Of a stretch of 64,000 nt of DNA, positions 2,671-51,088 are shown one piece after another (within the stretch, counting starts at the first letter, position 1; each line of letters begins with the position of its first letter). The stretch covers positions 1,695 to 65,694 of the forward strand of contig CAYMZY010000001.1 in the NCBI GenBank assembly GCA_964395165.1, written 5' to 3'. This DNA comes from an uncultured Bdellovibrionales bacterium. Lineage in GTDB: Bacteria > Patescibacteriota > Minisyncoccia > Moranbacterales > UBA1568. Below the pieces are notes generated by a model. That model was not told the origin of the DNA, ran no database searches, and saw only the letters and a program-made list of their open reading frames with translations. The position numbers were made by a program, and so were the translations under genes.

Positions 2671-2760
2671 TATAAGACGTGTTTTCGAGCATACGGCAAG
2701 TCAGTTTGAGAGAAGACAGATAGGTTGAGTTATATAAAAAACGAATTAACACCAACATCT

Positions 2761-8574: not shown

Positions 8575-8616
8575 TATAATATCAATCGGGTCGGTCATAA
8601 AATAAAACAGAAGCGT

Positions 8617-9171: not shown

Positions 9172-9187
9172 TTTTTATTGTATACGT

Positions 9188-10042: not shown

Positions 10043-10077
10043 ATCGGACAGTCCGACTTATAAGAAGAGGGCATCCT

Positions 10078-11724: not shown

Positions 11725-11728
11725 CGCT

Positions 11729-11757
11729 TTGGTCTTATCGGTTTTTTCGGATATACT
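11729..11757 (+). promoter_or_regulatory. putative sigma70-type promoter for pilT (TTGGTC-N17-TATACT)
   Basis: The hexamers are visible. The -10 matches the TATACTG motif that recurs in this window. Confidence 0.3.
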
Positions 11758-11799
11758 GTCAGGAGGAGTTCGGGTTGAATCAATACAAAAACGTATCCT

Positions 11800-12894: not shown

Positions 12895-12923
12895 TTTTTC
12901 GTAAAACATTATTTGTTATCCGT

Positions 12924-14132
12924 ATGAAATTCGTATTCAAGGCGAAAACCGAAGCGGGTCAAGAGCGGTCAGGTATCGTCGAGGCTCTGAGTCGAGAGGC
13001 TGCTATCCTGGTACTTCAAAACAACGGTCTCACGCCATTTTCCGTACAGGAGGAGGCGCACGATGTCGCATTGATTCGGGATATTTCGAAACTGTGGGAG
13101 GGGGTGTCCCAGAAGGAGCTGATGGTGATGTTTCGACAGCTGGCGACATTGATCAGTGCCCGAGTTCCGATGGTTTCGGCCTTGGATACCCTGGCGGATC
13201 AGACACCGAATCGATATTTTCGTATTATCCTAAAGGAGATAGAAGATGATGTGGAAGACGGTTCATCGTTTTCAGAAAGCTTGGAAAAGCATCCGACCGT
13301 ATTCGAACCGCTGGTCATCAATATGCTCCGGGCCGGAGAGGTTTCAGGAACCCTTCAGCGGGCGATCGAGGTGGTCGCGGAAAATATCGAGAAGAATTAC
13401 CAGCTGTCAGCCAAGATCAAGGGGGCGCTGTTCTATCCAGGATTCGTCTTTTCGGCGGCACTTATCATCGGGTTTCTCGTGGTGACGTTCATCCTGCCGA
13501 AACTGACTGGTCTGATTCGTGATCTCGGAGTTCCGATTCCGTGGTATACGGAGGTGCTCATGTGGATCGGGGATTTCATGAATGCGTACTGGTGGGCAGT
13601 ACTGCTCGTGTTTTTTGCGGCCGGTCTCTCATTTTTCTACTATATCAACACTGCGGCGGGACAGGCCGATTGGAATCGGGTGGTCCTGAAGTTGCCTATA
13701 TTTGGAGACCTCATGAAATACGTCTATATCACCCGTTTTTCGGAAAATATGAGCTCGCTTCTGAATGGGGGGATTCCGATCGTCAAGGCGCTCATCATCG
13801 TGAGTGACGTGACAGGAAATCTCGTTTTTCGGGAGGTCATCCTGCATGCCGCGGAAGAAGTGAAGACGGGTGGGGCGATGAGTGGGGTGTTTCTCCGTTC
13901 CCCGATCATACCGCCTATCGTGTCGCAGATGATTAAGATCGGCGAGGAGTCGGGATCGGTCGCGAAGGTGCTCGACGGTGTGGCGAGTTTTTACCGGGCG
14001 GAAGTGGAAAACATCACGCGTAACATGACCTCTTTGATAGAGCCGATACTGATCGTATTCCTTGGTATCGGGGTCGGAATTATGGTGGTGGGTATTCTTA
14101 TGCCGATCTATGATATCGCCGGGAAACTTTAA
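12924..14132 (+). CDS. pilC: type IV pilus inner-membrane platform protein PilC (GspF family)
   Basis: 402 aa, two T2SF repeats, three TM segments. Confidence 0.9.
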   Translation: MKFVFKAKTEAGQERSGIVEALSREAAILVLQNNGLTPFSVQEEAHDVALIRDISKLWEGVSQKELMVMFRQLATLISARVPMVSALDTLADQTPNRYFRIILKEIEDDVEDGSSFSESLEKHPTVFEPLVINMLRAGEVSGTLQRAIEVVAENIEKNYQLSAKIKGALFYPGFVFSAALIIGFLVVTFILPKLTGLIRDLGVPIPWYTEVLMWIGDFMNAYWWAVLLVFFAAGLSFFYYINTAAGQADWNRVVLKLPIFGDLMKYVYITRFSENMSSLLNGGIPIVKALIIVSDVTGNLVFREVILHAAEEVKTGGAMSGVFLRSPIIPPIVSQMIKIGEESGSVAKVLDGVASFYRAEVENITRNMTSLIEPILIVFLGIGVGIMVVGILMPIYDIAGKL

Positions 14133-14146
14133 TGGGCGAAAAAGAG

Positions 14147-14176
14147 TTGGTTATTTTTGAAAGGGCAGTGTACAAT
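14147..14176 (+). promoter_or_regulatory. putative promoter for the pilin genes (TTGGTT-N18-TACAAT)
   Basis: Hexamers are about 75 nt upstream of the pilin ATG. AGGAGGTGAGG RBS before the ATG. Confidence 0.35.
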
Positions 14177-14249
14177 AGAGACAATGGAAAAAGAGACCGG
14201 AAGGGTTTCGAAGAAAAATAAAAATCATGAATGGAAAGGAGGTGAGGAC

Positions 14250-14609
14250 ATGAAAAACAATCTGAAAGGTTTCACGCTCATCGAACTCCTGATCGTCATC
14301 GCGATTATCGGTATTCTCGCTTCGATCGTGCTGGTGAGTTTGAGCGGTGCTCGGACAAAGGCGCAAAAGGCGGCGTTCAAAGCTGAAGTGTCCGGAGCGG
14401 TTGGAGGTCTTGTGCTCGAGTGTGATGATGCTGCTCCGACACCACCGGGAGACACGACGGTAACGGATTGGGACAATACGGTAACGGAGGATTGTGGCCC
14501 AGCTGGCGATGGGACCTTCTCGATTAGTGCGGTTCCAGTGGCGACTATCGCTGGTTGCACCGGGGCAAACGCGACAGAAACAGGAGCAGATTTTGCGAGT
14601 TGTCCTTAG
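14250..14609 (+). CDS. pilA: type IV pilin (class III signal peptide)
   Basis: [31 protein letters not shown] prepilin motif (cleavage after G, Glu+5). 4 Cys in the C-terminal half. Confidence 0.8.
14265..14345 (+). repeat. 81-nt exact direct repeat, copy 1 (pilin N-terminal alpha-helix coding region)
   Basis: Identical to 14683-14763 (aaaggtttcacgctcatcgaactcctgatcgtcatcgcgattatcggtattctcgcttcgatcgtgctggtgagtttgagc). Confidence 0.85.
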
Positions 14610-14670
14610 GCTTTCGGGCTCGGGAGATTGACTGGCTTCAAAGGTGTTAAAATTTTTTAAAGAAAGATTT

Positions 14671-15027
14671 ATGTATCAGAAGAAAGGTTTCACGCTCATC
14701 GAACTCCTGATCGTCATCGCGATTATCGGTATTCTCGCTTCGATCGTGCTGGTGAGTTTGAGCAATGCTCGGACGAAGGCGCAGGTGGCGTCATTCAAGG
14801 CGGAGACATCTGGAGCGAATGCTGGGCTTTTGCTCCAGTGTGACACCGCTGCTCCTACGCCACCAACCGATACGACGACAACTAACTGGGCCAACGCCAT
14901 CACGAGTAGCTGCGGAGCTGCCGGAAGCGGAACATTCAGAATTACCGCGGTTCCGATTAACACAGCCTTGAACTGCACCGCTACGGTCACCAACACGGGA
15001 ACAACCTATGCGGGGGCGGGCTGCTAG
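14671..15027 (+). CDS. pilA: type IV pilin paralog (class III signal peptide)
   Basis: [22 protein letters not shown]. The C-terminal half diverges from copy 1 but keeps 4 Cys and a Thr/Pro-rich stretch. Confidence 0.8.
14683..14763 (+). repeat. 81-nt exact direct repeat, copy 2
   Basis: See 14265-14345. Confidence 0.85.
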
Positions 15028-27779: not shown

Positions 27780-28514
27780 TTGTGGAATATGTCTATGCTC
27801 ATCGAAGCGAAACAATTGGCGAAGATCTATAGCAACGAAGGTATTGAAACACCGGCGCTTCTTCAGGCGACTTTCCAGATTGATCAAGGGGAATTCGTTT
27901 CGATTATGGGACCGAGTGGCTCGGGAAAATCGACGCTCATGCACATACTCGGATTGCTCGATCGTTCGACGGGCGGAGAGTACCGGCTTGAAGGGAAGGA
28001 TGTCGTATCCCTTTCGGATGATGAGCTGGCACGGCTTCGGAACGAAGAGATCGGGTTTGTTTTCCAGGCTTTCAATCTTCTGCCGAGGACGAGCGTGTTC
28101 GAGAATGTCGAGCTTCCGCTTCTGTATGATCGGAATGGAACGGAGAATACGAAGGAGCGGGTCACGGCAGCGCTTCGGGCGGTCAACATGGAACATCGGT
28201 CTTCTTTCTTTTCGAGCCAGCTTTCTGGAGGGGAAAAGCAGCGAGTCGCTATCGCGCGGGCGCTCGTCAACAATCCGAAGATTATCTTCGCCGATGAGCC
28301 GACCGGCAATCTCGATTCGAAGTCGGGATTGCAAGTCATGCGCATTTTCCAGAAGTTGAGTGAGGAAGGGAAAACGATCATTCTGGTGACGCACGAGACT
28401 TTCACGGCCGAACATGCCAAGCGTATTTTACGCATGGTAGATGGGCGTATCGTTTCCGATGAATCGGTGGCGAATCGCCGTTTCGCCGATCAGGAGAACA
28501 CACTGTTGAAATGA
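27780..28514 (+). CDS. ABC transporter ATP-binding protein, MacB/LolD-type
   Basis: GPSGSGKSTLMH, LSGGEKQRVAIARAL, IFADEPTGNLD. Confidence 0.85.
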   Translation: MWNMSMLIEAKQLAKIYSNEGIETPALLQATFQIDQGEFVSIMGPSGSGKSTLMHILGLLDRSTGGEYRLEGKDVVSLSDDELARLRNEEIGFVFQAFNLLPRTSVFENVELPLLYDRNGTENTKERVTAALRAVNMEHRSSFFSSQLSGGEKQRVAIARALVNNPKIIFADEPTGNLDSKSGLQVMRIFQKLSEEGKTIILVTHETFTAEHAKRILRMVDGRIVSDESVANRRFADQENTLLK

Positions 28515-29752
28515 AACTTTCCGACCCTTACAAGATCGCGTATCAGGCACTTTCGGCATCGCGTCTGCGGTTCTTTTTGACGGTTCTCGGAATCGTGATC
28601 GGGGTCGCTTCGGTTATCCTGGTCATGAGTGCCGGAGCGAGCGCACAGCAGCTCATCCTGGGTCAGATAGAGTCAGTTGGGTCGAATCTGCTGGCGGTAT
28701 TGCCGGGTGCTTCCGAAGAGGACGGTCCGCCGGCTATGGCATTCGGTATCGTATCGAAGACTCTGATCAATGGGGACCTCGAAGCACTGCGGGATGGAAA
28801 GAATATCCCCGAGATCATTGACGCGGTCGGATACGTGACCGGGACGGCGATCGCCGAATCCGATTCGGAAGACATCGTGGCGAGCTATCAGGGGGTCAGC
28901 GCGAGTCTTCCAAATGTGGAAACGGTGAAGGTTGAGAGCGGGCGCTTCTTCTTTCCTGATGAGGATACGCGGATGGCGCATATCGCGGTGCTTGGGGCGG
29001 GAGTATCAGAAAAACTGTTCCCGAACGGGAATGCGCTCGGAAGGACGGTTACGATCAAGCATATTCCGTTCACGGTGGTCGGTGTGCTTAAAAAACGCGG
29101 CTCCGGGGCTTTTTCGAATACGGACGATCTGATCCATATTCCGCTCGATACCGCCCAGAAGGAACTGCTCGGCATCAGGTACCTGAATTATGTGCGGGCG
29201 AAGGTGGAACAGACCGGCGATATCGGTCGGGTAAAAACGGAGGTGTATCGGTTATTGAATCAACGGCACGATATCGAACCGGGTCAGGAATCCGATTTCT
29301 CAGTTCGGAGTCTCGAATCGGCTTTGGATATCCTTCGTTCGCTTACCGATGTTTTGAAATTTTTTCTGGTCTCGATCGCTGCTATTTCGCTTCTGGTTGG
29401 AGGAATCGGAATCATGAACTCCATGCTGATCGCAGTCAACGCGCGTGTCCGGGAAATCGGCCTCAGAAAAGCGGTTGGTGCCCGTCCGGGTGAAATCATG
29501 TTCCAATTCCTTCTCGAGTCTATCATCATCACACTCCTTGGAGGGTTGATCGGAATCGCTATCGGAGTTTCGTTGGCATACATCGCTTCATTGATCATTC
29601 CGAAGCTGGGTTATGACTGGCAGTTTCTTGTGCCGCTCTCCTCGATCGGGGTCTCATTCGGGGTCTGTTTCGTAATAGGAATGGTATTCGGAATTTACCC
29701 GGCACAGAAAGCCTCGAAAGTCAGTCCGATGGAAGCGTTACGTTACGAATAG
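28511..29752 (+). CDS. ABC transporter permease, FtsX/MacB-type (MacB periplasmic core domain + FtsX 4-TM domain)
   Basis: 413 aa, TM1, a large extracytoplasmic domain, then 3 TM. ATGA overlap with the ATPase gene. Confidence 0.8.
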   Translation: MKLSDPYKIAYQALSASRLRFFLTVLGIVIGVASVILVMSAGASAQQLILGQIESVGSNLLAVLPGASEEDGPPAMAFGIVSKTLINGDLEALRDGKNIPEIIDAVGYVTGTAIAESDSEDIVASYQGVSASLPNVETVKVESGRFFFPDEDTRMAHIAVLGAGVSEKLFPNGNALGRTVTIKHIPFTVVGVLKKRGSGAFSNTDDLIHIPLDTAQKELLGIRYLNYVRAKVEQTGDIGRVKTEVYRLLNQRHDIEPGQESDFSVRSLESALDILRSLTDVLKFFLVSIAAISLLVGGIGIMNSMLIAVNARVREIGLRKAVGARPGEIMFQFLLESIIITLLGGLIGIAIGVSLAYIASLIIPKLGYDWQFLVPLSSIGVSFGVCFVIGMVFGIYPAQKASKVSPMEALRYE

Positions 29753-29799
29753 CTGGCTCGTTTTTGTGCATGGTATACTGGGTAGGTGATAATAGGCGT

Positions 29800-30189
29800 A
29801 TGATTGAAAAAGGAAAAATTAGATTCATAGTGGCGCTCGTCGTCCTGATCGTTTTCTCGATACTTCTGTTCGGTGTCCTGTACCGCGAACAGGGGAAACG
29901 TATCGCGAAGGCCGAATCCGACCGACAGGTGTTTTTGGAAGAACAGCGGGCTATCGAACAGGATCGGAAGCAGTATTTTGAAAATGTTGCAGCCAAACGG
30001 GCCGAGTTGCGTTCTGGCATGGCGGAAAGCAAGAGTCAGTATGAGCAGCTTCTGAATAACCAGCCGGAGGCTATCGCGAAAAATAAGACGACAACCACAG
30101 AGACAGCGACGGTTCCCGTGAAGACGACTGTAACGACACCGGTAACGGTTTCTAAGCCGACAGCGACCCGGAAAACGAAATCATCTTGA
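29800..30189 (+). CDS. hypothetical N-terminally anchored coiled-coil protein with Thr-rich tail
   Basis: TM FIVALVVLIVFSILLFGVL, coiled-coil, TTTTETATVPVKTTVTTPVTV. TATACTGG motif at 29774. Confidence 0.4.
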   Translation: MIEKGKIRFIVALVVLIVFSILLFGVLYREQGKRIAKAESDRQVFLEEQRAIEQDRKQYFENVAAKRAELRSGMAESKSQYEQLLNNQPEAIAKNKTTTTETATVPVKTTVTTPVTVSKPTATRKTKSS

Positions 30190-30194
30190 ATCTT

Positions 30195-30716
30195 ATGACT
30201 CTCCGCTTTCCTCTGGCCAGTATTTTTCTTCTCGGGATAGCGGGTATCTCTCTGATTTTTTGGTACCGGGAAATACGGGTATCGGACGTCCAGAATACTT
30301 TTTCTGGAAGGGTCGCGCTTGCGGATGATGAAGACGATGACGATGATGAAGAGGATGATGAGGACGATAAGGAAGAAGATGACGATGAGGACGATGATGA
30401 CTCAGATACCTCCCGGTCAGCCCGACCGAAGGAAACCGTCATTACGACTTATCGGCTTGTAGAGAGGACCGTGACCCTGTTGGATGAAAAGTTCAGAGTG
30501 GATACGGACGGGGACCTGCTCGTAGACGGGCTTGATCCGCATCCGGACACTCCTGAATCGGCGTACTTCACCGATGATGACGAAGATGCGGTTCCGAACG
30601 CCCTGGATGCGTATCCGGGTGAGGATGATTTTCTCGTTTTCGGAGATGAGGAGGATCAGGATAAGGATGGTATTCTGGATTCTTTTGTTGCTGCGTCCTC
30701 GAAAGAGATATGGTGA
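30195..30716 (+). CDS. hypothetical membrane-anchored protein with poly-acidic tract and thrombospondin-type-3-like Ca-binding motifs
   Basis: TM LASIFLLGIAGISLIFWY. DDEDDDDDEEDDEDDKEEDDDEDDDDSD. DTDGDLLVDGLDPHPD, DDDEDAVPNALDAYPGEDD. Confidence 0.45.
   Translation: MTLRFPLASIFLLGIAGISLIFWYREIRVSDVQNTFSGRVALADDEDDDDDEEDDEDDKEEDDDEDDDDSDTSRSARPKETVITTYRLVERTVTLLDEKFRVDTDGDLLVDGLDPHPDTPESAYFTDDDEDAVPNALDAYPGEDDFLVFGDEEDQDKDGILDSFVAASSKEIW
30318..30400 (+). repeat. low-complexity (GAN)n tract encoding about 28 consecutive Asp/Glu
   Basis: gatgatgaagacgatgacgatgatgaagaggatgatgaggacgat... Confidence 0.7.
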
Positions 30717-30801
30717 AGGTTTCTGGTTCCGTTTTTCAGTGGTCGATTTTATCCTGCGTATGGTCTGGAAAAAACGGGAACGGGAGCTGAAGGGTGAAAT
30801 C

Positions 30802-31719
30802 ATGCGGACCGATGTTTTTGTGCAAGTCTTTTCGAAAACGCGTGAAGAGGGACTGATGGAAGAAGATTTGGACCGGGCATTTCGGATGTTCCGTGATTTT
30901 GAGTCACGTTTCAGTCGGTTTCGGGAGGGGAACGAGCTCTCGGATCTAAATCGGTCTTCCGTCTGCCACGTCTCTGTCGATTTGTTCGAGATATTGTCCC
31001 TTTGTCGGAAATACTATGAAGAAACTGGCGGGGTATTCGACCCGGCCGTGCTTCCAATACTTGAGCAGGAGGGGTATCGGGCTAGTTTCGGTACGGAGCA
31101 TTTCGGTATACCGAGCAAAGAGAAGATTGTTCGGAGATATGATTTTTCCGACCTCCGGATGGATCGCGCAACTCTTATCGTCTCGAAGCCTATCGGCTGT
31201 CGTATCGATCTCGGGGGTATCGGAAAGGGATACGCTGTCGGTTGTGTCTCCCAGATGTTGGCGGAGTCTTATCAGGATTTTATCGTAGATGCTGGCGGAG
31301 ATATATATGTTGCCGGTCGGAATCGCATGACGCGTTTCCCGTATTTCGCAATCGATATCGAGAACGCGTTTCGGAAAGATGAGAGTGCGGGACTACTTCT
31401 TCTTTCGGGTCAAGCAGTGGCGACTTCGGGTGTCAACCGGAGACGTTGGCAGAGCGACGGACAAGAGAAATCACATCTTATCGATGTGGAGAAGGGTGGG
31501 AGCGTCTCCGGTGATATTCTGACTGTGACGGTGGTCGATCCTTCGCCGGTGCGTGCCGATATCATGGCGAAGACACTCTGTATTCTCGGTCGGAAGAAGG
31601 GAATGCTGCTTGCTCAAAGGAATCGTCTTCCAGCTCTTTTTCTTCTGAAAGATGGTACAATGGAAGTGAATGAATTCATGAAACCATACGTATGGGAAGA
31701 CGATACCTTCTTTTTATGA
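30802..31719 (+). CDS. apbE: FAD:protein FMN transferase ApbE
   Basis: RIDLGGIGKGYAVG motif and the overall ApbE fold signature. No obvious signal peptide from the chosen ATG. Confidence 0.75.
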   Translation: MRTDVFVQVFSKTREEGLMEEDLDRAFRMFRDFESRFSRFREGNELSDLNRSSVCHVSVDLFEILSLCRKYYEETGGVFDPAVLPILEQEGYRASFGTEHFGIPSKEKIVRRYDFSDLRMDRATLIVSKPIGCRIDLGGIGKGYAVGCVSQMLAESYQDFIVDAGGDIYVAGRNRMTRFPYFAIDIENAFRKDESAGLLLLSGQAVATSGVNRRRWQSDGQEKSHLIDVEKGGSVSGDILTVTVVDPSPVRADIMAKTLCILGRKKGMLLAQRNRLPALFLLKDGTMEVNEFMKPYVWEDDTFFL

Positions 31720-32591
31720 CTTTTGTTGTCGGAGTCGTTTTTTTTGGTACCTTTTTGCAGTCCCAGGTGACCTCAGCCGCTATCAAGGATACTGATTTAG
31801 ATAGTCTGACCGATGAGAGTGAGTCTTCCCTCTATCATACCGATCCGGCTGTTTTCGACACGGATGGGGATGGTGTCGGAGATGGCAGTGAGATAGTGAG
31901 CGGGACAAGCCCTTTGGATCCGCGTAGTTCCCGTCTTTCCGATCTGGTCCGTCCGGATGTCGGAATCATGGGGAATAAGGATCAATGGTCCTGGTATTTC
32001 GGTCGGGTGACCGGACTACTCGCCTTCGTCCTGCTTACGTTTGGTGCGATATACGGACTCGTGATGAGCTCTCGTGTGTTTCAGAGAGTGATTTCCGGGG
32101 CGGCCGCCTATGAATTACATCGGACGCTTTCCTGGGTCAGTTTGGGAGCGGTCCTGCTCCATGTCGGAAGTTTTTTCTTTGATGATTTCTTACGTATCCG
32201 ATTCATCGAAGCGATAGTGCCGGGGGTGCTCACGCGTGATTTTCCATCGGCGCTTGGGTTCGATATGGGATTGGCAGTCGCTTTTGGTATCGTGGCCCTG
32301 TATTTTATGATCATCCTCCTCCTCACTTCTGAGTTCCGGGCCAAGCTCTCACAGCGGGCATGGAGAAGGACGCACTATCTGAGTTTCCTTGCTTATGCGG
32401 CTTTCGTCGCGCATGGCTTCATGGCTGGTTCCGATTCGGGAGAGCTATGGGTCCGCGGCATGTATATCGTTTCCTCCACATCGGTTCTTCTACTGGTAGC
32501 GATTCGGATCGTCTCTCGGACGCTTCTGTTGAAGCGGCAAGCCTTTTCGGAAAATCGGATTCCTTCGGAGAACCCGCCTTCCGTTTCCTGA
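31692..32591 (+). CDS. ferric-reductase-like transmembrane domain protein (MsrQ/YedZ-like di-heme b) with Ca-binding-like N-terminal segment
   Basis: 6 TM with His pairs (ELHRTL...LHVGSFF; RRTHYLSFLAYAAFVAHG). N-terminal DTDLDSLTDESE...DTDGDGVGDGSE after a signal anchor. Confidence 0.55.
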   Translation: MGRRYLLFMTFVVGVVFFGTFLQSQVTSAAIKDTDLDSLTDESESSLYHTDPAVFDTDGDGVGDGSEIVSGTSPLDPRSSRLSDLVRPDVGIMGNKDQWSWYFGRVTGLLAFVLLTFGAIYGLVMSSRVFQRVISGAAAYELHRTLSWVSLGAVLLHVGSFFFDDFLRIRFIEAIVPGVLTRDFPSALGFDMGLAVAFGIVALYFMIILLLTSEFRAKLSQRAWRRTHYLSFLAYAAFVAHGFMAGSDSGELWVRGMYIVSSTSVLLLVAIRIVSRTLLLKRQAFSENRIPSENPPSVS

Positions 32592-32600
32592 TTTTTTCGT

Positions 32601-33863
32601 ATGATACTTCGATTTTTCTCGCGTCATGCCCAATCGTTTCTCTTCGCCTTGCGGACGATACTTTCCCATAAGGCTCGGACATTCCTTGCTTTGCTTGGAG
32701 TGGTAATCGGAGTCCTTTCCATTATCGTGATCACGTCTTTCGGAGATGGAGTCAAAGGATTCATTCTCGGTCAGGTAGCGAGTTTCGGTTCGGATTTTGT
32801 TCAGGTGGAGACACAGGTTCCGGGGGCCGGTGATTCTCCCTCGGGTCAGGCGATGGGGAAGCTGACGATTACGACCCTGAAAATCGATGATGCGGAAGCG
32901 GTCCGCCGCTTGCCGAATGTCGCTGAGGTGTATGCCGGGAGCATCGGCCAGGAGCGCGCGAGTTATCGGGGGGTTCACAAACGCATCCTGCTTTTCGGTG
33001 CTTCTGCAACCGCTCCGATTGTCGATCCGAATCTCAAGCTTGAGTCGGGGCGTTTCTATTCGACGGATGAGGATGATGGATTGGCACAAGTGGTCGTGCT
33101 TGGAGCCGATATCAAGGATGCTCTGTTCGGAAGGGAAAGCGAGGCGGTAGGAGAGACGATCCGTATAAAAGGGCAGGGGTACAAGGTAGTCGGCGTTCTA
33201 GCTCGACGTGGCTCAGTCGCCTTTCTGAATTTTGATGAGATGACCTATGTGCCAGTGCGGACGTTGCAGAAGAAGATTCTCGGTGTCAATCACATCGCTT
33301 TTTTCACGTCGAAGATGAATGATATCTCGCGTGAGGACGAGACAGTGGCACTCATCCGCGAGACGCTTCGGAGACGGCACGATATTACCGATCCCGACCG
33401 GGATGATTTCATCGTGACATCGGCTCGTGAAGCACAGGAGACAGTATCTTCCATATTGGGAGCGATGAGTCTTCTCCTGATGTTTCTTACTTCGATTTCG
33501 CTCGTCGTCGGGGGAGTAGGTATCATGAATGTCATGTATGTCTCCGTGGCGGAGCGGACGAGTGAGATCGGACTCCGGAAGGCAGTCGGCGCTTCCTCGA
33601 AGAGCGTTCTTTGGCAATTTCTTTTTGAGGCTCTCATTATCACGGTGCTCGGTGGTCTTATCGGCGTGTTGCTCGGGGTGATTGTCACGTGGGGATTGAC
33701 CTTTTTGTCCGGGCAGCTCGGATACGGTCTCGAGCTCGCCTTCACTCTTCGTTCGTTCTTGCTTGGTGTTGGGTTTGCCGGTCTGGTCGGCATCGTTTTT
33801 GGATTAGCTCCTGCCTATCGTGCTTCGCGCCTCTCACCGATGGAAGCTTTGCGCAGGGAGTGA
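32601..33863 (+). CDS. FtsX/MacB-type ABC permease, second copy (no adjacent ATPase)
   Basis: 420 aa, the same architecture as 28511-29752, about 35-40% identical by eye. Confidence 0.8.
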   Translation: MILRFFSRHAQSFLFALRTILSHKARTFLALLGVVIGVLSIIVITSFGDGVKGFILGQVASFGSDFVQVETQVPGAGDSPSGQAMGKLTITTLKIDDAEAVRRLPNVAEVYAGSIGQERASYRGVHKRILLFGASATAPIVDPNLKLESGRFYSTDEDDGLAQVVVLGADIKDALFGRESEAVGETIRIKGQGYKVVGVLARRGSVAFLNFDEMTYVPVRTLQKKILGVNHIAFFTSKMNDISREDETVALIRETLRRRHDITDPDRDDFIVTSAREAQETVSSILGAMSLLLMFLTSISLVVGGVGIMNVMYVSVAERTSEIGLRKAVGASSKSVLWQFLFEALIITVLGGLIGVLLGVIVTWGLTFLSGQLGYGLELAFTLRSFLLGVGFAGLVGIVFGLAPAYRASRLSPMEALRRE

Positions 33864-33881: not shown

Positions 33882-33921
33882 AAATAAAAAAACGCCGCAA
33901 TATGTCGCGGCGTTTTGTTTG
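33882..33921. terminator. bidirectional intrinsic terminator (aaacgccgc/gcggcgttt) with A-run upstream and T-run downstream
   Basis: It serves the + strand permease gene and the convergent - strand ORF 33923-34396. Confidence 0.6.
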
Positions 33922-33922
33922 G

Positions 33923-34396
33923 TCAGTCAGTGACCGACTGTGCTCTGATCCAGTCAGTCTCCTTGAACCCCTCCCTTATTTCCTGCTTAATATAATAAGG
34001 CATATTTACTTCGGAGCTACCATACCACTTTTCGACAAGTTCAAGTCTTTTTCGAATTTGCCGGGCCCGATCTGGGCATCCCGAGAACGGTATCAGTTCT
34101 TGGACACGCGCCAGGAGCTTCCCTGAGCAGTACGGCACGAACCGCGAAGGACGATACTGCACGGCCAGTGCCATACAGTCGAAGTTATTCGCGTCAGCGA
34201 GCAACTCGAGCGCCTGTTCGGTATGCGCGGCATTAAGACTGCTGATAAGGTTTTTGATGCGGCCCGTATCGGCTGGTTTGTGCTTGCAGTCTCCGATGAG
34301 AGCTGCTATCTCTTGCAGATGATGCCCTGCGCTTTCTTCGCGCTTCGGAGAGCGAAGCTTGAGTTGAAGTAAGCAAGCTGTGAAAAGAGCGTTCAT
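33923..34396 (-). CDS. hypothetical protein (157 aa), no recognised domain
   Basis: ORF with a plausible terminator. AT-rich 240-nt upstream region. Confidence 0.4.
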   Translation of the reverse strand: MNALFTACLLQLKLRSPKREESAGHHLQEIAALIGDCKHKPADTGRIKNLISSLNAAHTEQALELLADANNFDCMALAVQYRPSRFVPYCSGKLLARVQELIPFSGCPDRARQIRKRLELVEKWYGSSEVNMPYYIKQEIREGFKETDWIRAQSVTD

Positions 34397-43138: not shown

Positions 43139-45289
43139 ATGCCGGTTTATAAGATACAGAAACGCAATGGTTCGATTGTTGATTTCAATTTGGAGAAGAT
43201 TGAGAACGCTATCGGTCAGGCGGCCAAGGCGACTGGTAAGCATGATGAGATCGTTGCGCAGGTACTGGCTCAGGATGTATATTCCCGCTTGGAAGAAGAG
43301 TTTTCCGGCAAGATCCCGACGGTCGAAGAAGCGCAGGACATCGTCGAGGATATGCTTATCCAATACGGTTACGCCGAGACCGCGAAAGCGTATATCCTCT
43401 ATCGTGAGAAAAGACGGGAGGCGCGGGAAGAAAAGAATGTCGTTGTCGAGGTCGAGAGGGCAATCCGTGAGTATCTCGAGAAACTTGATTGGAGGGTGAA
43501 TGCGAATTCGAATCAGGGATACTCACTTGGCGGCATGATCTTGAACACGGCCGGGAGCGTCATCGCGAATTACTGGCTCTCACACATCTACCCGAAGGCG
43601 GTCGGGGATGCGCACCGGAATGGAGACTACCATATCCATGACCTGGATATGTTCTCGGGTTACTGCGCTGGATGGAGTTTGCGCGTCTTGCTTGAAGAGG
43701 GATTCAACGGAGTTCCGAACAAGGTTGAGTCTTCCGCGCCGAGGCATCTTTCCTCAGCTGTATCGCAGATGGTGAACTTTCTCGGGACGCTTCAGAACGA
43801 ATGGGCGGGGGCGCAGGCTTTTTCAAGCTTTGATACCTATCTCGCACCGTTCGTGAAAAAATATGAGCTTGAACTGCGGGAAGATATAAAAAAATATCAG
43901 ATAGCGTTCGCCAGTAAGGCGAAGCAGGAGCAGTATGTAGCTGATCGGGTGTATGATTATGTGCACCAGAATATCCAGTCTTTCGTTTTTAACCTGAATA
44001 TCCCTTCCCGCTGGGGAACGCAGACGCCATTTACCAATATCACGCTTGACTGGGATGTGCCGGAAGATATGCGTGAAAAGCGGTTGTTGTTGGGAGGCGA
44101 GCCATTCGCTTACATGTTCGGGGAACTGCAGCCGGAGATGGATATCATCAATCGGGCGTTCATCGAAGTGATGTCGCAAGGGGATGCGAAGGGCCGCACC
44201 TTCACGTTTCCGATCCCGACTTATAATGTGACCAAGGATTTCGAATGGGAGAATCCGAAAAACCTACCCCTTTTTGAGATGACAGCCAAATACGGCACGC
44301 CGTATTTCCAGAATTTTGTGAATTCTGAATTGAATCCGAGCGATGTTCGGTCGATGTGCTGTCGTCTGCAACTTGACTTGCGGGAGCTCCGGAAGCGCGG
44401 CGGCGGACTTTTCGGTTCAGCTGAGATGACCGGATCGATCGGAGTGGTGACTATTAATGCTGCTCGGCTCGGATATCTCCACCGGGGAGATCGGGAGAAG
44501 CTGTATGAGCGGCTCGGGTATCTGATGGATCTTGCTAAGACATCGCTCGAGATCAAACGCGAAGAGATCCAAAAATGGATCGATCGCGGACTCTTCCCGT
44601 ATACCAAGCGCTATCTCGGGTATCTCAGGAATCACTTCTCGACCATCGGGGTGAACGGTATCAATGAGGCGATCCGCAATTTTACCGGTGATGCGGAGAA
44701 TATCTCGACACCGAAAGGCCAGGCATTGGCGAAGGAAATTCTTGATTTTATGCGGGAACGCATCAAGGATTATCAGGAGGAAACGAACAATTATTACAAC
44801 CTTGAGGCGACGCCGGCCGAAGGAACGACATACCGTTTCGCCAAGGAGGATAAGAAGCGTTTTTCGGATATCATCCAGGCCGGGACCGTGGAAGCCCCGT
44901 ATTACACGAATTCTTCTCAGGTACCGGTGGAGTACAGTGATGATATTTTCGAGGTGCTCGAATTGCAGGATGAGCTGCAGCGTAAGTATACTGGGGGTAC
45001 GGTCCTTCACTGTTATATGCATGAGAAGGTGAGTTCCGGAGAGGCTTGTCGGAGTCTGGTGCGTTCGATTCTTTCCAATTATCGCCTGCCCTATATCACC
45101 ATTACGCCGACATTCTCCATCTGTCCGAAACATGGATATCTTGAGGGCGAATGGGACTATTGTCCGAGGTGTGATCGTGAGCTTGGTATTGAGAATGGGG
45201 AGCGTTTCGATGTGAAAACAAGGCAGAAATATGAGAGTCAGCAGCCGGAATCCGTCCAAAAGGGCGGACGGAAGAGAAAGGGAGTATAA
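43139..45289 (+). CDS. nrdD: anaerobic ribonucleoside-triphosphate reductase NrdD (class III), lacking the C-terminal glycyl-radical loop
   Basis: N-terminal ATP-cone (VYKIQKRNGSIVDFNLEKI), class III core (TPYFQNF...MCCRLQ). C-terminal Zn site CPKHGY...CPRC, then a basic tail with no RxxGY. Confidence 0.8.
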   Translation: MPVYKIQKRNGSIVDFNLEKIENAIGQAAKATGKHDEIVAQVLAQDVYSRLEEEFSGKIPTVEEAQDIVEDMLIQYGYAETAKAYILYREKRREAREEKNVVVEVERAIREYLEKLDWRVNANSNQGYSLGGMILNTAGSVIANYWLSHIYPKAVGDAHRNGDYHIHDLDMFSGYCAGWSLRVLLEEGFNGVPNKVESSAPRHLSSAVSQMVNFLGTLQNEWAGAQAFSSFDTYLAPFVKKYELELREDIKKYQIAFASKAKQEQYVADRVYDYVHQNIQSFVFNLNIPSRWGTQTPFTNITLDWDVPEDMREKRLLLGGEPFAYMFGELQPEMDIINRAFIEVMSQGDAKGRTFTFPIPTYNVTKDFEWENPKNLPLFEMTAKYGTPYFQNFVNSELNPSDVRSMCCRLQLDLRELRKRGGGLFGSAEMTGSIGVVTINAARLGYLHRGDREKLYERLGYLMDLAKTSLEIKREEIQKWIDRGLFPYTKRYLGYLRNHFSTIGVNGINEAIRNFTGDAENISTPKGQALAKEILDFMRERIKDYQEETNNYYNLEATPAEGTTYRFAKEDKKRFSDIIQAGTVEAPYYTNSSQVPVEYSDDIFEVLELQDELQRKYTGGTVLHCYMHEKVSSGEACRSLVRSILSNYRLPYITITPTFSICPKHGYLEGEWDYCPRCDRELGIENGERFDVKTRQKYESQQPESVQKGGRKRKGV

Positions 45290-45327
45290 TTCATCAGAAG
45301 TGGAGTAATTATCTAAAAACAAAGAGT

Positions 45328-45516
45328 ATGACCGAGGAAACACAATTGGTGGAGCGGACACGTTGCGAGGTTTGGACGCGGGTCATGGGGTATCATCGTC
45401 CAGTGTCGCATTTCAATGTCGGCAAGAAATCCGAGCACTATTCACGTAAACATTTCACGGAAACAGTAGCTGCCAATCATGCTTTCTGTCAGCAGTATTC
45501 GGAGATTGAATGCTAG
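45328..45516 (+). CDS. NrdD glycyl-radical C-terminal segment encoded as a separate 62-codon ORF
   Basis: TRVMGYHRPVSHFNVGKKSEHYSRKH aligns with the NrdD C-terminus RVCGYLGSPDRLNSGKQAEFNDRVKH (Gly radical in RV-GY). Confidence 0.5.
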   Translation: MTEETQLVERTRCEVWTRVMGYHRPVSHFNVGKKSEHYSRKHFTETVAANHAFCQQYSEIEC

Positions 45517-45532
45517 TTTCTCATCGGAACGT

Positions 45533-46240
45533 ATGCTTTTGAGCGGTATTACTAAGCTGACGCTTCTGGACTTTCCGGAGAAAACAGCCTGTATCGTTTT
45601 TACGGCCGGGTGCAATTTTCGTTGCGGATACTGTCATAATCCGGAATTCGTCCTGCCGGAGCGACTGAAGGAAATCGAGAAGGGATTCATTCCTGAGAGT
45701 GTTTTTTTTCGCTTTCTCGAACGTCGGAAAGGTCTTCTGCAGGGCGTAGTGATTACTGGAGGTGAACCGACGCTGCATCCCGATCTGGAGGATTTTATCG
45801 GGAGGATACGGGCGCTCGGATACGCTGTGAAGTTGGATACGAATGGTAACCGTCCGGATGTGTTGCGGCGATTGATCGACCGTGGACTGGTACAGTATGT
45901 CGCTATGGATTTCAAGACGAGCTTTTCTCGTTACCCAGTGCTTTCAGGATTGGGGGCTGATGCAGAGGCGATCGAATCGAGCTTCAATCTCCTGAAGGAG
46001 GGCGAGACGCCTCATGAGTTTCGTACGACCTTCGTTCGTGAGGTGCATACGGAGAAGGTGCTTCAGGAAATGAAGCTGTCACTTCGGGGCGCGAAACGGT
46101 ATTTCCTTCAGCCGTTCCGGAATGAAATCGTGCTGGATCCGAAGTTTGAGACGATGAGTGCGTTTTCGGAAACGGAAATGCTGTCTTTGGCTGAGTATTT
46201 TTCCGATACCGTCGGAGAAGTCGGTATCCGGGAGGCATAG
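45533..46240 (+). CDS. nrdG: anaerobic ribonucleotide reductase activating protein NrdG (radical SAM)
   Basis: CNFRCGYCHN (CxxxCxxC), GGEPTL. Confidence 0.8.
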   Translation: MLLSGITKLTLLDFPEKTACIVFTAGCNFRCGYCHNPEFVLPERLKEIEKGFIPESVFFRFLERRKGLLQGVVITGGEPTLHPDLEDFIGRIRALGYAVKLDTNGNRPDVLRRLIDRGLVQYVAMDFKTSFSRYPVLSGLGADAEAIESSFNLLKEGETPHEFRTTFVREVHTEKVLQEMKLSLRGAKRYFLQPFRNEIVLDPKFETMSAFSETEMLSLAEYFSDTVGEVGIREA

Positions 46241-50423: not shown

Positions 50424-50461
50424 GGTCATCCAGTGTGATACTGATGCGAAAGACCGTTTTT

Positions 50462-50490
50462 TTGTCGGATGGGGTGAGGTGCTGTATACT
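50462..50490 (+). promoter_or_regulatory. putative promoter TTGTCG-N17-TATACT for the pseudopilin operon
   Basis: Hexamers seen. TGTATACT motif. Confidence 0.35.
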
Positions 50491-50547
50491 ATACTTATTG
50501 GAAGGGTCTGATTTCTTTAATTTTTTCAAATTCGCAGGAAATCCGAT

Positions 50548-51072: not shown

Positions 51073-51088
51073 ATACATCAGGATTCAT

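What the first reader, a model, noticed from the sequence alone, without database searches (positions are those of the whole stretch)
29800..32591. ApbE flavin transferase next to a ferric-reductase-type di-heme membrane protein and Ca-binding, acidic membrane-anchored proteins
**What the sequence shows.** Four consecutive genes:
1. An N-anchored coiled-coil protein with a Thr-rich tail.
2. An N-anchored protein with a 28-residue poly-Asp/Glu tract and thrombospondin-type-3-like DxDxDG motifs.
3. ApbE (FAD:protein FMN transferase).
4. A 6-TM ferric-reductase-domain (MsrQ/YedZ-like, conserved His pairs) protein. Its extracytoplasmic N-terminus also carries DTDGDGVGDG Ca-binding-like motifs.

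**Established knowledge.** ApbE clusters are known to mark extracytosolic flavinylation and electron-transfer modules.

**What is missing.** No protein here shows the canonical FMN-binding [ST]GA[ST] flavinylation motif.

**Interpretation.** Either the target is elsewhere, or this ApbE has a non-canonical substrate. The ApbE itself has no obvious signal peptide from its best start codon.

This could be a minimal extracellular electron-transfer or redox-repair unit (MsrQ-like).
Basis: partly seen in the sequence, partly recalled or inferred. Interest (0 to 1): 0.5.

Follow-up and report, generated by a model that had tools for sequence, protein, structure and literature searches.

The report
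Orphan flavin transferase beside membrane cytochrome
A candidate-phylum (Moranbacteria) bacterium carries a conserved four-gene unit that pairs a two-heme membrane electron carrier with an unusual signal-less flavin-attaching enzyme; the enzyme's usual target is missing, and a small surface protein with a conserved tail is the best new candidate target.

Summary
The four genes are real and sit in one seven-gene operon with a MacB-type ABC transporter. P1-P2-ApbE-FRD is a fixed cassette in about 20 distinct Moraniibacteriota loci, with or without the transporter.

- **FRD.** It is a NOX/STEAP/cytochrome-b561-like di-heme protein with four invariant His. It consists of a signal peptide, Ca-type TSP3 repeats outside and 5 TM helices.
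- **ApbE.** It keeps the Ser/His/Asp triad. None of its 120 closest relatives has an export signal. The metal-ligand Thr (E. coli T284) is Lys in 148/148 clade members.
- **Missing target.** The canonical D-x-x-[ST]-G-A-[ST] motif is absent from the window and from more than 100 related loci.
- **Candidate target.** The gene just upstream of ApbE always ends in a conserved basic Thr/Ser tail. In Moraniibacteriota it is ...KPKATRKTKSS-COOH; in non-CPR loci it is ...PVFQxPVTRTRRS-COOH. Charge rules place the tail outside the cell.
- **Donor side.** A relative has ApbE plus an FRD fused to an NAD(P)H/FAD domain, so ApbE does not replace the cytoplasmic donor.

Verdict: a new variant of the known "MsrQ-like" ApbE-associated electron-transfer systems, with a non-canonical ApbE and probably a non-canonical substrate. 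Flavinylation of the tail is inferred, not shown.

The parts
27795..28514 (+). ABC transporter ATPase (MacB/LolD type), first gene of the operon
   Evidence: Pfam ABC_tran 3.6e-33. NCBIfam best hits are the MacB, DarD and LolD ATPases. It overlaps the next gene by 4 nt. Other gene callers use the 239-aa start.
28511..29752 (+). MacB-type permease 1 (MacB_PCD + FtsX)
   Evidence: Pfam 9.5e-38 and 7.4e-22. It flanks the cassette in many but not all related loci.
29800..30189 (+). P1: signal-anchored stalk protein (129 aa). TM segment, long helix, disordered Thr-rich tether, conserved C-terminal tail.
   Evidence: No Pfam family. AlphaFold: helix 2-86, pLDDT below 50 for residues 102-129. Homologous gene at the same position in all related loci.
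30154..30186 (+). P1 C-terminal tail KPTATRKTKSS-COOH: candidate non-canonical ApbE acceptor or docking peptide
   Evidence: The tail ...PK[AS]T[RK]x[TS]K[TS]S-COOH is present in all 19 distinct Moraniibacteriota P1 sequences, and in L026, L089-L091 and L096. The non-CPR counterpart P-[VI]-T-R-T-R-[RG]-S-COOH occurs in 43 loci.
30195..30716 (+). P2: secreted or anchored acidic protein. Hydrophobic N-terminus, conserved AxA|[DE][DE] site, poly-D/E tract, three DxDxD-type loops.
   Evidence: Alignments. No Pfam or NCBIfam family. Alternative TTG start at 30186.
30324..30401 (+). P2 poly-Asp/Glu tract (D47-D72)
   Evidence: Its length varies between otherwise identical strains (+3 and -14 residues).
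30760..31719 (+). ApbE-family FAD:protein FMN transferase homologue (319 aa), without signal peptide
   Evidence: Pfam ApbE 1.4e-51. PDB relatives 6nxi and 5mgy at E about 1e-22. 0 of 120 closest homologues have a hydrophobic N-terminus. Triad residues S223, H239 and D267 are conserved.
31570..31572 (+). Codon of Lys271, at the position of the metal-site-1 ligand Thr284 of E. coli ApbE
   Evidence: Ungapped alignment to E. coli 4xgx. Ligand list from PMC4767422 Table 3. Lys in 121/121 CPR and 27/27 non-CPR clade members.
31692..32591 (+). FRD: di-heme ferric-reductase-domain membrane protein (299 aa). Its start overlaps the end of ApbE by 28 nt.
31779..31949 (+). Extracytoplasmic TSP3-type Ca-binding repeats of the FRD, following a signal peptide with an AxA site
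   Evidence: PF18884 is precomputed on many homologues. The family profile hits the Bap TSP3-like region at E = 4.5e-6. Foldseek aligns 45 residues at 47% identity to 7c7u. NCBIfam CglD and MtsD hits.
32118..32414 (+). Heme-ligand histidines H143 (32118-32120), H157 (32160-32162), H228 (32373-32375), H241 (32412-32414)
   Evidence: Invariant in 49 aligned family members. The spacings i+14 and i+13 on two helices match NOX; the gp91phox H101/H115/H209/H222 comparison rests on my own knowledge.
32601..33863 (+). MacB-type permease 2, last gene of the operon
   Evidence: Pfam MacB_PCD 4.2e-32 and FtsX 3.8e-21.
33889..33916 (.). 12-bp-stem hairpin with T-run: terminator-like site closing the operon and the convergent gene
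   Evidence: No terminator-like site of comparable strength lies inside 27795-33863 on the + strand.

Best explanation
P1, P2, ApbE and FRD form one conserved functional module for electron transfer across the cytoplasmic membrane of an anaerobic Moranbacteria (CPR) cell.

**FRD.** It is a two-heme b cytochrome of the NOX/STEAP type. Its C-terminus and inner heme (H143/H228) face the cytoplasm. Its outer heme (H157/H241) and Ca-binding TSP3 repeats face outward.

**P1 and P2.** They work on the outer face.
- P1 is a membrane-anchored helical stalk. It ends in a flexible Thr-rich tether and a conserved basic tail (T-R-K-T-K-S-S-COOH).
- P2 is a strongly acidic protein that probably binds Ca or other metals.

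**ApbE.** It is a dedicated, non-canonical member of its family. It keeps the catalytic Ser/His/Asp triad and the flavin-stacking aromatic residue. It has no export signal, and a Lys sits where the metal-ligand Thr normally is.

**Most likely mechanism (inferred).** ApbE covalently attaches FMN to a non-canonical acceptor inside the cassette. The best candidate is a Thr or Ser of the P1 tail, modified in the cytoplasm before P1 is exported. The tethered flavin would then take electrons from the outer heme and pass them to an extracellular acceptor. That acceptor is probably Fe(III) or another metal held by the acidic tracts.

**Cytoplasmic donor.** It is not encoded in the cassette here. In relatives it is a fused or adjacent FNR-type FAD/NAD(P)H domain with a ferredoxin.

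**Shown:** gene content, conservation, fold, His pattern, absence of signal peptide and of the canonical motif, the Lys substitution, and the tail motif.

**Inferred:** heme binding, topology, ApbE activity, the acceptor residue, the direction of electron flow and the final acceptor.

**My probabilities:**
- Conserved functional unit: about 0.95.
- Di-heme transmembrane carrier: about 0.85.
- ApbE cytoplasmic: about 0.8.
- ApbE acts on a cassette protein: about 0.55.
- P1 tail is the acceptor: about 0.3.
For: **Synteny.** The order P1-P2-ApbE-FRD is kept in about 20 distinct Moraniibacteriota loci at 40-77% FRD identity. These include loci without the MacB genes. ApbE overlaps the FRD start by 28 nt.

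**Same core outside CPR.** Two small anchored proteins, a signal-less ApbE and an FRD recur in non-CPR loci. ApbE lies directly upstream of the FRD in 43 of 46 loci.

**FRD.**
- Four invariant His.
- AlphaFold pLDDT 89.
- Best structural matches are cytochrome b561, Dcytb, SpNOX, the NOX5 TM domain and STEAP1/4.
- Relatives carry C-terminal FAD_binding_6 + NAD_binding_1 or Pyr_redox_2 domains. This fixes the C-terminus in the cytoplasm.

**ApbE.**
- Full-length Pfam match.
- Triad conserved.
- No hydrophobic N-terminus in 120 CPR homologues or about 45 non-CPR ones.
- T284 to Lys in 148/148.

**Canonical motif.** Absent from the window, from cassette proteins of 29 loci, and from all ORFs of at least 80 aa in 80 further loci.

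**Tail motif.** It is conserved at the extreme C-terminus of the gene immediately upstream of ApbE across phyla. AlphaFold predicts the tail to be disordered.

**ApbE is not a stand-in for the dehydrogenase.** L096 has ferredoxin, P1, P2, ApbE and an FRD-FNR fusion together.

**Extracytoplasmic redox partners vary next to the FRD.** Examples are DM13 (L004), a heme-c Haem_bd protein (L006, L169) and a cupredoxin-like ORF (L026).

**Literature.** Meheust et al. 2021 (PMC8238504) state that orphan apbE genomes imply unidentified substrates.
Against: - **Compartment mismatch.** By the positive-inside rule the P1/B tail is outside the cell. N-flank charge is about +4 and C-flank about -0.5 in non-CPR proteins. 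ApbE has no export signal. Tail flavinylation would therefore have to precede export, which has no precedent.
- **Motif mismatch.** The tail bears no resemblance to D-x-x-[ST]-G-A-[ST]. Every ApbE substrate validated so far uses that motif.
- **Cassettes without ApbE.** Four loci keep the small proteins and the FRD but have no ApbE between them: L017, L139, L164 and L169.
- **The Lys might disable the enzyme.** Replacing a metal ligand with Lys could abolish transferase activity rather than retune it.
- **Limited sequence.** Only 64 kb of this genome is available, so a canonical FMN_bind target elsewhere cannot be excluded.
- **No experimental data exist for any member.**
Confidence: 0.45

Rival explanations
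1. ApbE works on the cytoplasmic face of the FRD itself. It would attach or load a flavin next to the inner heme, for example at the conserved T/S212...R216...W224-R225...H228 region. That would make a flavocytochrome, comparable to MsrQ with FMN or STEAP with FAD. P1 and P2 would have nothing to do with flavin.
For: - ApbE and the FRD's cytoplasmic loops share a compartment.
- The two genes overlap.
- The window FRD has no dehydrogenase domain, and no FNR-like gene lies in the 64 kb.
- T/S212 and neighbouring basic residues are nearly invariant.
Against: - T/S212 is equally conserved in the FRD of L027, which has an FNR-type partner and no ApbE. It is also conserved in the FRD-FNR fusion P0251.
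- L096 has both a fused FAD/NAD(P)H domain and ApbE, so no extra cytoplasmic flavin is needed there.
- No [ST]GA[ST]-like loop exists in the FRD.
- T212 lies at the end of a TM helix, not in a loop.
Confidence: 0.17
2. The ApbE target is a canonical FMN_bind, DUF2271 or DUF3570 protein encoded elsewhere in the genome. Adjacency to the FRD would then reflect co-regulation only.
For: - Only 64 kb of the genome can be read.
- Cytoplasmic ApbEs with a canonical cytoplasmic target exist, such as the Klebsiella fumarate reductase system described in review PMC12052999.
- Some loci keep P1, P2 and FRD without an adjacent ApbE.
Against: - This ApbE clade pairs one-to-one with the cassette in every context examined, across at least three phyla, often with overlapping genes.
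- No canonical motif occurs within about 5 kb in more than 100 loci.
- Extracytosolic flavinylation components are reported as strikingly under-represented in CPR.
- The altered metal site argues against a standard enzyme.
Confidence: 0.15
3. This ApbE is no longer a transferase. With the metal ligand replaced by Lys it would hold FAD stably. It would then serve as a flavin carrier or chaperone, an FAD pyrophosphatase, or a redox partner of the FRD.
For: - T284 to Lys and D283 to Ala remodel metal site 1.
- The flavin-stacking aromatic residue is invariant. In characterised ApbEs this residue marks the stable FAD-binding class (PMC4767422).
- No substrate motif is present.
Against: - The Ser/His/Asp(Glu) triad is invariant over about 150 sequences, which points to retained catalysis.
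- L096 already has a FAD/NAD(P)H donor fused to the FRD.
- This reading gives no reason for the conserved tail protein upstream.
Confidence: 0.13
4. The cassette is an accessory of the flanking MacB-type ABC transporter. It would resemble the FtsX-type ABC plus FMN-binding protein sets in Gram-positive iron-uptake loci such as B. breve sifABCDE. Its role would be reductive metal uptake rather than general electron disposal. This refines the main explanation more than it competes with it.
For: - All seven genes lie in one operon, and the cassette sits between the two permease genes.
- The same sandwich recurs in many Moraniibacteriota loci.
- sifBCD (FtsX permeases and ATPase) with SifE (FMN-binding) is needed under iron limitation (PMC5449479).
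- Acidic and His-rich tails suit metal binding.
Against: - The cassette is equally conserved without MacB genes in L004, L018, L023, L025, L089-L091 and L096, and in all non-CPR loci.
- In L017 the two permease genes are adjacent and the cassette follows them.
- No P19, FTR1 or VIT1 gene appears in any listed neighbourhood.
Confidence: 0.1

Closest known systems
'MsrQ-like' flavinylation-associated transmembrane electron-transfer clusters (Meheust et al. 2021, eLife, PMC8238504; Huang et al. 2024, PMC11334425)
   Same: A PF01794 di-heme membrane protein is encoded next to apbE. The predicted role is moving electrons from the cytoplasm to an extracytosolic acceptor, with a suspected link to iron reduction.
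   Different: Those clusters typically contain an FMN-binding-domain gene with [ST]GA[ST]. They often have an NAD-binding or NuoF-like donor. They were selected for signal-peptide-bearing flavinylation genes and are mostly actinobacterial.

Here there is no FMN_bind domain, no motif, no donor domain and no signal peptide on ApbE. The metal site is Lys-substituted. Two unannotated small proteins are always present.
Prokaryotic NADPH oxidases (SpNOX, Streptococcus pneumoniae; NOX5 of Cylindrospermum stagnale)
   Different: The window protein ends about 25 residues after the last TM helix, so it has no dehydrogenase domain. Its first helix is a cleavable-looking signal peptide followed by TSP3 repeats. 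The organism has an anaerobic RNR, so O2 is an unlikely acceptor.
MsrPQ with the flavin reductase Fre (E. coli): a two-component NOX-like system
   Same: A stand-alone FRD-family membrane cytochrome is fed by a separate cytoplasmic flavin-dependent partner. This description rests on my own knowledge of Juillan-Binard et al. 2017, which is cited in PMC8238504.
   Different: No MsrP-type molybdoenzyme gene lies in any neighbourhood examined. The His pattern is four His, not MsrQ's. The partner is ApbE, not Fre.
Cytoplasmic ApbE of Klebsiella pneumoniae (flavinylates a soluble fumarate reductase) and ApbE domains of trypanosomatid fumarate reductases
   Same: These are ApbE enzymes without signal peptides that act inside the cell (review PMC12052999).
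   Different: Their targets carry the canonical motif in an FMN_bind domain and are soluble cytoplasmic enzymes. Here the neighbours are membrane or surface proteins without the motif.
B. breve sifABCDE, and P19/FTR1-associated FtsX-type ABC transporters with FMN-binding proteins
   Same: Two FtsX/MacB-type permeases and an ATPase share an operon with a membrane-anchored flavin-linked putative ferric reductase.
   Different: SifE has a canonical FMN-binding domain. Those loci have no FRD cytochrome. The window has no P19 or FTR1. The MacB association here is dispensable in many relatives.

Membership tests
ApbE / FAD:protein FMN transferase (PF02424) | Full-length match to the family profile and to solved ApbE structures | tested here: met
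   Pfam 1.4e-51, profile positions 1-266 of 266. PDB 6nxi at 5.5e-23 and 5mgy at 1.5e-22.
ApbE / FAD:protein FMN transferase (PF02424) | Catalytic Ser-His-Asp triad (V. cholerae S241, H257, D285) | tested here: met
   S223, H239 and D267 in the window protein. Ser and His are invariant, and Asp is D or E, across about 150 clade members. Triad definition from PMC12052999.
ApbE / FAD:protein FMN transferase (PF02424) | Metal-site-1 ligands (E. coli D280, D283, T284) | tested here: not met
   D280 is kept, D283 is Ala and T284 is Lys271 (ungapped alignment to 4xgx). Lys in 148/148 clade members. Ligand list from PMC4767422 Table 3.
ApbE / FAD:protein FMN transferase (PF02424) | N-terminal lipoprotein or secretory signal (typical, not universal) | tested here: not met
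   No hydrophobic N-terminal segment with any start codon. 0 of 120 closest homologues have one, and none in the non-CPR relatives.
ApbE / FAD:protein FMN transferase (PF02424) | Cognate substrate with D-x-x-[ST]-G-A-[ST] encoded nearby | tested here: not met
   No match in any frame of the window, in cassette proteins of 29 loci, or in ORFs of at least 80 aa in 80 further loci.
ApbE / FAD:protein FMN transferase (PF02424) | Mg-dependent transfer of FMN from FAD to a protein Thr/Ser | not testable with these tools
   Needs biochemistry.
Ferric-reductase-domain superfamily (PF01794: NOX, FRE, STEAP, MsrQ) | Profile match above the curated cut-off | tested here: met
   32.4 bits against a cut-off of 28, E = 1e-7. 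PF01794 is precomputed on about 70 homologues.
Ferric-reductase-domain superfamily (PF01794: NOX, FRE, STEAP, MsrQ) | Two His pairs on two TM helices able to ligate two stacked hemes | tested here: met
   H143/H157 and H228/H241 are invariant in 49 sequences. Each pair lies on one predicted helix (136-160 and 221-245). Heme binding itself was not tested.
Ferric-reductase-domain superfamily (PF01794: NOX, FRE, STEAP, MsrQ) | Fold similarity to solved members | tested here: met
NADPH oxidase (NOX) proper | C-terminal FAD- and NAD(P)H-binding dehydrogenase domain | tested here: not met
   The protein ends about 25 residues after the last TM helix. No FNR-like ORF lies in the window. The domain is present in relatives P0251 and P0253 and as a separate gene in L027.
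MsrPQ methionine-sulfoxide repair system | Adjacent MsrP (molybdopterin oxidoreductase) gene | tested here: not met
   No such Pfam family appears in any listed neighbourhood or among the window neighbours scanned.
'MsrQ-like' flavinylation system as defined by Meheust et al. 2021 | PF01794 gene in a cluster with apbE | tested here: met
   The genes are adjacent and overlapping.
'MsrQ-like' flavinylation system as defined by Meheust et al. 2021 | FMN-binding (or DUF2271/DUF3570) substrate gene, and a signal peptide on a flavinylation gene | tested here: not met
   No such domain in P1, P2 or FRD. ApbE has no signal peptide. Definition read.
Bacterial TSP3 repeats (PF18884) | Profile-level match of the FRD N-terminal region | tested here: met
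   The window protein's own Pfam scan lists no TSP3 hit. Many homologues carry PF18884. The family profile hits the Bap TSP3-like region at E = 4.5e-6. NCBIfam CglD scores 9.7e-6.
Bacterial TSP3 repeats (PF18884) | Profile-level match of P2 | tested here: not met
   No Pfam hit. hhalign against the FRD family gives probability 2%. Only DxDxD-type motifs are visible by eye.

The most novel reading that the evidence does not exclude
This signal-less, Lys-substituted ApbE clade recognises a new motif, P-x-x-T-R-x-T-[KR]-x-S-COOH, at the extreme C-terminus of a signal-anchored stalk protein. It attaches FMN there in the cytoplasm before export. The result would be a flavin on a flexible tether that carries electrons from the outer heme of a NOX-type cytochrome to acceptors beyond the cell wall. 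This would be a third kind of ApbE substrate, after FMN_bind and DUF2271/DUF3570. It would be the first lacking the [ST]GA[ST] motif, and it would be shared by CPR bacteria and non-CPR lineages that include Chloroflexi.
Probability: 0.25. Interest if true: 0.85.

Novelty: new variant of a known kind. Interest (0 to 1): 0.6.

Why it matters
- **Orphan ApbEs.** ApbE flavinylation underlies many extracytosolic redox systems. The field's own survey left about 4% of apbE-bearing genomes without a known substrate and found CPR bacteria nearly devoid of such systems (PMC8238504). This locus defines a coherent orphan class: roughly 150 ApbE sequences examined here, paired with an FRD family of more than 1,000 cluster representatives.
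- **A testable candidate.** The class offers a concrete candidate substrate motif and a diagnostic active-site change (T284K). A simple E. coli co-expression test could check both.
- **CPR physiology.** If confirmed, it would widen the rules of ApbE recognition. It would also give CPR bacteria, which lack respiratory chains, a defined route for sending electrons out of the cell or reducing extracellular iron.
- **If the tail is not the substrate.** The module still marks a conserved, unannotated set of partner proteins for NOX-type bacterial cytochromes.

Tried and rejected
1. **SGTS in the FRD N-terminus as a degenerate flavinylation site.** Rejected. In homologues it reads xGT[DNS]P[LV]D, the TSP3 consensus, and the final S/T is not conserved.
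2. **ApbE as a replacement for the missing NOX dehydrogenase domain.** Rejected as the main reading. L096 has ApbE plus an FRD-FNR fusion and a ferredoxin.
3. **ApbE-FRD 'Rosetta-stone' fusion P0369.** Rejected. The ApbE part loses homology after HHL and runs into Arg/Pro-rich out-of-frame sequence, which is a frameshift artefact. It still shows adjacency.
4. **T/S212 of the FRD as an ApbE-specific site.** Weakened. It is equally conserved in FRDs without ApbE.
5. **FMN or other riboswitch upstream.** No Rfam hit in the window.
6. **FNR-like donor gene in the window.** None found.
7. **Tat export of P1 (cofactor loaded before export).** The Moraniibacteriota P1 N-termini have no twin-arginine motif. 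Non-CPR B proteins have RR, but 8-12 residues from the hydrophobic segment, so this is not convincing.
8. **P2 as a true TSP3-repeat protein.** Not supported.
9. **Technical dead ends.**
   - Locus scans with the broad alignments A1 and A9 failed for lack of a conserved stretch. Narrower alignments A5 and A10 worked.
   - The word-based homologue search with P1 found only close relatives.
   - The sequence profile of the FRD did not reach any solved NOX or MsrQ structure, so fold comparison was used instead.
10. **Literature.** No paper in the library describes this variant.

Full report
**1. What is there**

On the + strand, 27795-33863 holds seven tightly packed genes:
- an ABC ATPase;
- MacB-type permease 1;
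- P1 (29800-30189);
- P2 (30195-30716);
- ApbE (30760-31719);
- a ferric-reductase-domain protein, FRD (31692-32591);
- MacB-type permease 2.

Gaps between genes run from -28 to +47 nt. No convincing terminator lies inside the block, and a 12-bp hairpin with a T-run follows it at 33889-33916. Identical or near-identical proteins carry NCBI names from 'Candidatus Moranbacteria bacterium'. The window also encodes an anaerobic ribonucleotide reductase and type IV pilus genes. This fits an anaerobic CPR bacterium.

**2. Check of the observation**

All four descriptions hold, with three corrections.
- **ApbE start.** It most likely starts at ATG 30760, giving 319 aa, the length of NCBI protein MBP6975255.1. 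The N-terminal stretch W..EREV.GEIM.TD is conserved in homologues. No start codon gives a signal peptide.
- **FRD architecture.** It is not a plain 6-TM protein. It has a signal peptide with a conserved AxA site, two TSP3-type repeats, then five TM helices.
- **P2.** Its 'TSP3-like' character is visible only at motif level.

The canonical flavinylation motif D-x-x-[ST]-G-A-[ST], as defined in PMC12052999, is absent from all six frames of the window.

**3. The cassette is a conserved unit**

I built HMMs from the four proteins and ran them over 29 related loci.
- About 17 distinct Moraniibacteriota loci show the order P1-P2-ApbE-FRD.
- Three contexts of more distant ApbE homologues and L096 show it as well.
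- The MacB 'sandwich' is frequent but dispensable. It is absent in L004, L018, L023, L025, L089-L091 and L096.
- In L017 the two permease genes are adjacent and the cassette follows them, there without ApbE.

The core also extends beyond CPR. A GenBank MAG assembly (L006) and a Chloroflexi MAG (L028) have two small anchored proteins, or in L028 one recognised, followed by a signal-less ApbE and an FRD. An actinobacterial MAG (L029) has a small Thr-rich anchored ORF, a signal-less ApbE and an FRD, followed by an ORF that looks NuoF-like by eye. A metagenome scan with the non-CPR FRD group returned 80 loci. ApbE lies directly upstream of the FRD in 43 of the 46 loci with enough upstream DNA.

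**4. The membrane protein**

- Four His are invariant in 49 aligned members. They sit as two pairs on two helices, spaced i+14 and i+13. By my own knowledge this matches gp91phox H101/H115/H209/H222.
- The AlphaFold model is confident, with pLDDT 89.
- An exhaustive profile search finds 7,348 cluster representatives of this FRD family.
- Some relatives carry C-terminal FAD_binding_6 + NAD_binding_1, which is a complete NOX architecture, also with TSP3 repeats. Others carry Pyr_redox_2 + Rubredoxin_C + BFD domains.
- In a WWE3 genome the FNR-type domain is a separate downstream gene next to a ferredoxin.

These fusions place the C-terminus and the H143/H228 heme on the cytoplasmic side. They argue for electron flow from cytoplasmic reductants outward. 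The window FRD has no such domain, and no FNR-like ORF lies within the 64 kb. No MsrP-type gene appears in any neighbourhood, so a methionine-sulfoxide-repair role is not supported.

**5. The ApbE is not standard**

- **Retained features.** The Pfam match is full length. The Ser/His/Asp triad (V. cholerae S241/H257/D285; PMC12052999) is retained. The aromatic residue that stacks on the flavin in FAD-binding ApbEs (PMC4767422) is an invariant Phe by family alignment.
- **No export signal.** None of the 120 closest homologues has a hydrophobic N-terminus, and none of about 45 non-CPR homologues has one.
- **Altered metal site.** An ungapped alignment to E. coli ApbE (4xgx) reproduces that paper's numbering.
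  - Of the metal-site-1 ligands D280, D283 and T284 (PMC4767422 Table 3), D280 is kept.
  - D283 is Ala. V. cholerae ApbE also has Ala here, so this change is not diagnostic.
  - T284 is Lys271.
  - Lys occupies the T284 position in 121/121 CPR and 27/27 non-CPR clade members, and in L006 and L028. The actinobacterial NuoF-type L029 keeps Thr.
  - The four solved ApbEs shown in the alignment all have Thr.

This is a clade-defining active-site change. Its chemical consequence is unknown.

**6. A candidate substrate**

No cassette protein has the canonical motif in any of the loci. The gene immediately upstream of ApbE, or one gene further upstream in Moraniibacteriota, always ends in a conserved tail.
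- In 19 distinct Moraniibacteriota P1 sequences the tail is ...PK[AS]T[RK]x[TS]K[TS]S-COOH. Variants occur in L026, L089-L091 and L096.
- In the non-CPR loci the last 16 residues read P-Q-K-P-V-F-Q-x-P-[VI]-T-R-T-R-[RG]-S-COOH, in 43 loci with 23 distinct tails.
- The shared core is P-x(1,2)-T-R-(x)-T-[KR]-x-S-COOH.

AlphaFold models P1 as one helix (residues 2-86) followed by a disordered region that includes the tail. The second small protein carries an acidic tract in every lineage: poly-D/E in P2, and Asp/His-rich tails ending in HDD(D) in non-CPR loci.

The flanking charges of the anchor segment predict N-in/C-out. In non-CPR proteins the mean is +4.2 before and -0.5 after the segment. 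The Moraniibacteriota P1 is similar by inspection. The tail therefore lies outside the cell, while ApbE lies inside.

**7. Weighing the mechanisms**

L096 combines ferredoxin, P1, P2, ApbE and an FRD-FNR fusion. ApbE is therefore not a stand-in for the cytoplasmic dehydrogenase. P1, P2 and ApbE travel together as a sub-module, and all three are absent in L027. This parallels the known MsrQ-like systems, in which ApbE serves an extracytosolic flavoprotein acceptor.

The reading I favour is that ApbE modifies a cassette protein. P1's tail is the only conserved hydroxyl-bearing linear motif. Because of the compartment mismatch, modification would have to occur before export, which has no precedent. 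I give the specific tail hypothesis about 0.3 and the broader 'non-canonical substrate within the cassette' about 0.55.

Rivals:
- ApbE flavinylates or loads flavin onto the cytoplasmic face of the FRD.
- A canonical target is encoded elsewhere.
- ApbE has been repurposed as a stable FAD protein.

Four loci that keep the small proteins and the FRD but lack ApbE show that the small proteins are partners of the FRD in their own right.

Variable neighbours point to an extracytoplasmic acceptor chain: DM13, a heme-c Haem_bd protein, a cupredoxin-like ORF and YgaP-like TM proteins. The acidic and His-rich tracts and the anaerobic lifestyle make metal reduction, with Fe(III) the likeliest, my best guess. 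The precedent of FtsX-type ABC genes with FMN-binding proteins in iron uptake points the same way (PMC5449479; PMC8238504). Nothing here tests it.

**8. Comparison and novelty**

The closest known kind is the 'MsrQ-like' ApbE-associated system of Meheust et al. 2021. The locus meets its core criterion: a PF01794 gene next to apbE. It fails the others:
- no FMN-binding substrate;
- no signal peptide on a flavinylation gene;
- no NAD-binding or NuoF-like donor.

That survey filtered for signal peptides, reported CPR as strikingly under-represented, and noted that orphan apbE genomes imply unidentified substrates. No paper in the searchable library describes the Lys-substituted clade or the tail motif.

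I rate it a new variant of a known kind, with interest 0.6. It is well-defined and widespread, and a simple experiment can test it. Its key mechanistic claim remains inferred.

Noticed in passing
window 30324-30401 (P2 poly-D/E tract); L092, L093, L095: The acidic tract varies in length between strains whose P2 is otherwise 100% identical: +3 residues in L093 and -14 in L095. The GAT/GAA-rich repeat is therefore unstable or under length selection.
   Followed up: partly
window 30152-30442, minus strand: A 96-aa ORF rich in poly-Ser lies antisense to the P2 poly-D/E tract. It mirrors the GAT/GAA repeat and is almost certainly not a gene.
   Followed up: no
L003:8052-8489: In one relative, an extra 145-aa ORF sits between the FRD and MacB permease 2. 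It looks like a truncated FRD paralogue: signal peptide, TSP3 repeats, one TM helix, and a C-terminus nearly identical to that of the full FRD. It suggests a partial duplication.
   Followed up: no
L090:6911-7366: In one Moraniibacteriota genome the FRD gene is called as only 151 aa (TSP3 part only), although P1, P2 and ApbE are intact. This may be a frameshift, a pseudogene or an assembly error.
   Followed up: no
L004:7891-8628, L090:7431-7706, L091:7888-8121: A YgaP-like TM (DUF2892) mini-protein follows the FRD in three loci that lack the MacB genes. In L004 a DM13 'electron transfer' domain protein follows as well. These are possible alternative outer-face partners.
   Followed up: partly
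L006:5526-6023; L169:2446-2907: In non-CPR versions, a membrane-anchored Haem_bd (PF14376, CxxCH) protein is encoded inside or next to the cassette. It could be a heme-c acceptor for the FRD.
   Followed up: partly
P0369: A 547-aa 'ApbE-Ferric_reduct fusion' in the protein library appears to be a frameshifted gene call in a high-GC genome. Such entries could mislead domain-architecture surveys.
   Followed up: yes
window 7453-15027 and 49608-51802: Two groups of type IV pilus genes are present. They include PilM, a T2SSE ATPase, a T2SSF platform protein, a prepilin peptidase, and several ORFs with the GFTLIELL N-methylation motif. Only the pilin at 14157-14609 was confirmed by Pfam. A 398-aa secreted protein with T4SS_pilin repeats lies at 2725-3921.
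   Followed up: partly
window 43139-46240: An anaerobic (class III) ribonucleotide reductase NrdD and its radical-SAM activase are present. NrdD also lies a few kb from the cassette in L023, L089 and L090.
   Followed up: no
window 33923-34396, minus strand: A 157-aa ORF convergent on the operon has no Pfam or NCBIfam match. A perfect sigma-70-like promoter match (12 of 12) lies upstream of it at 34512-34484.
   Followed up: no
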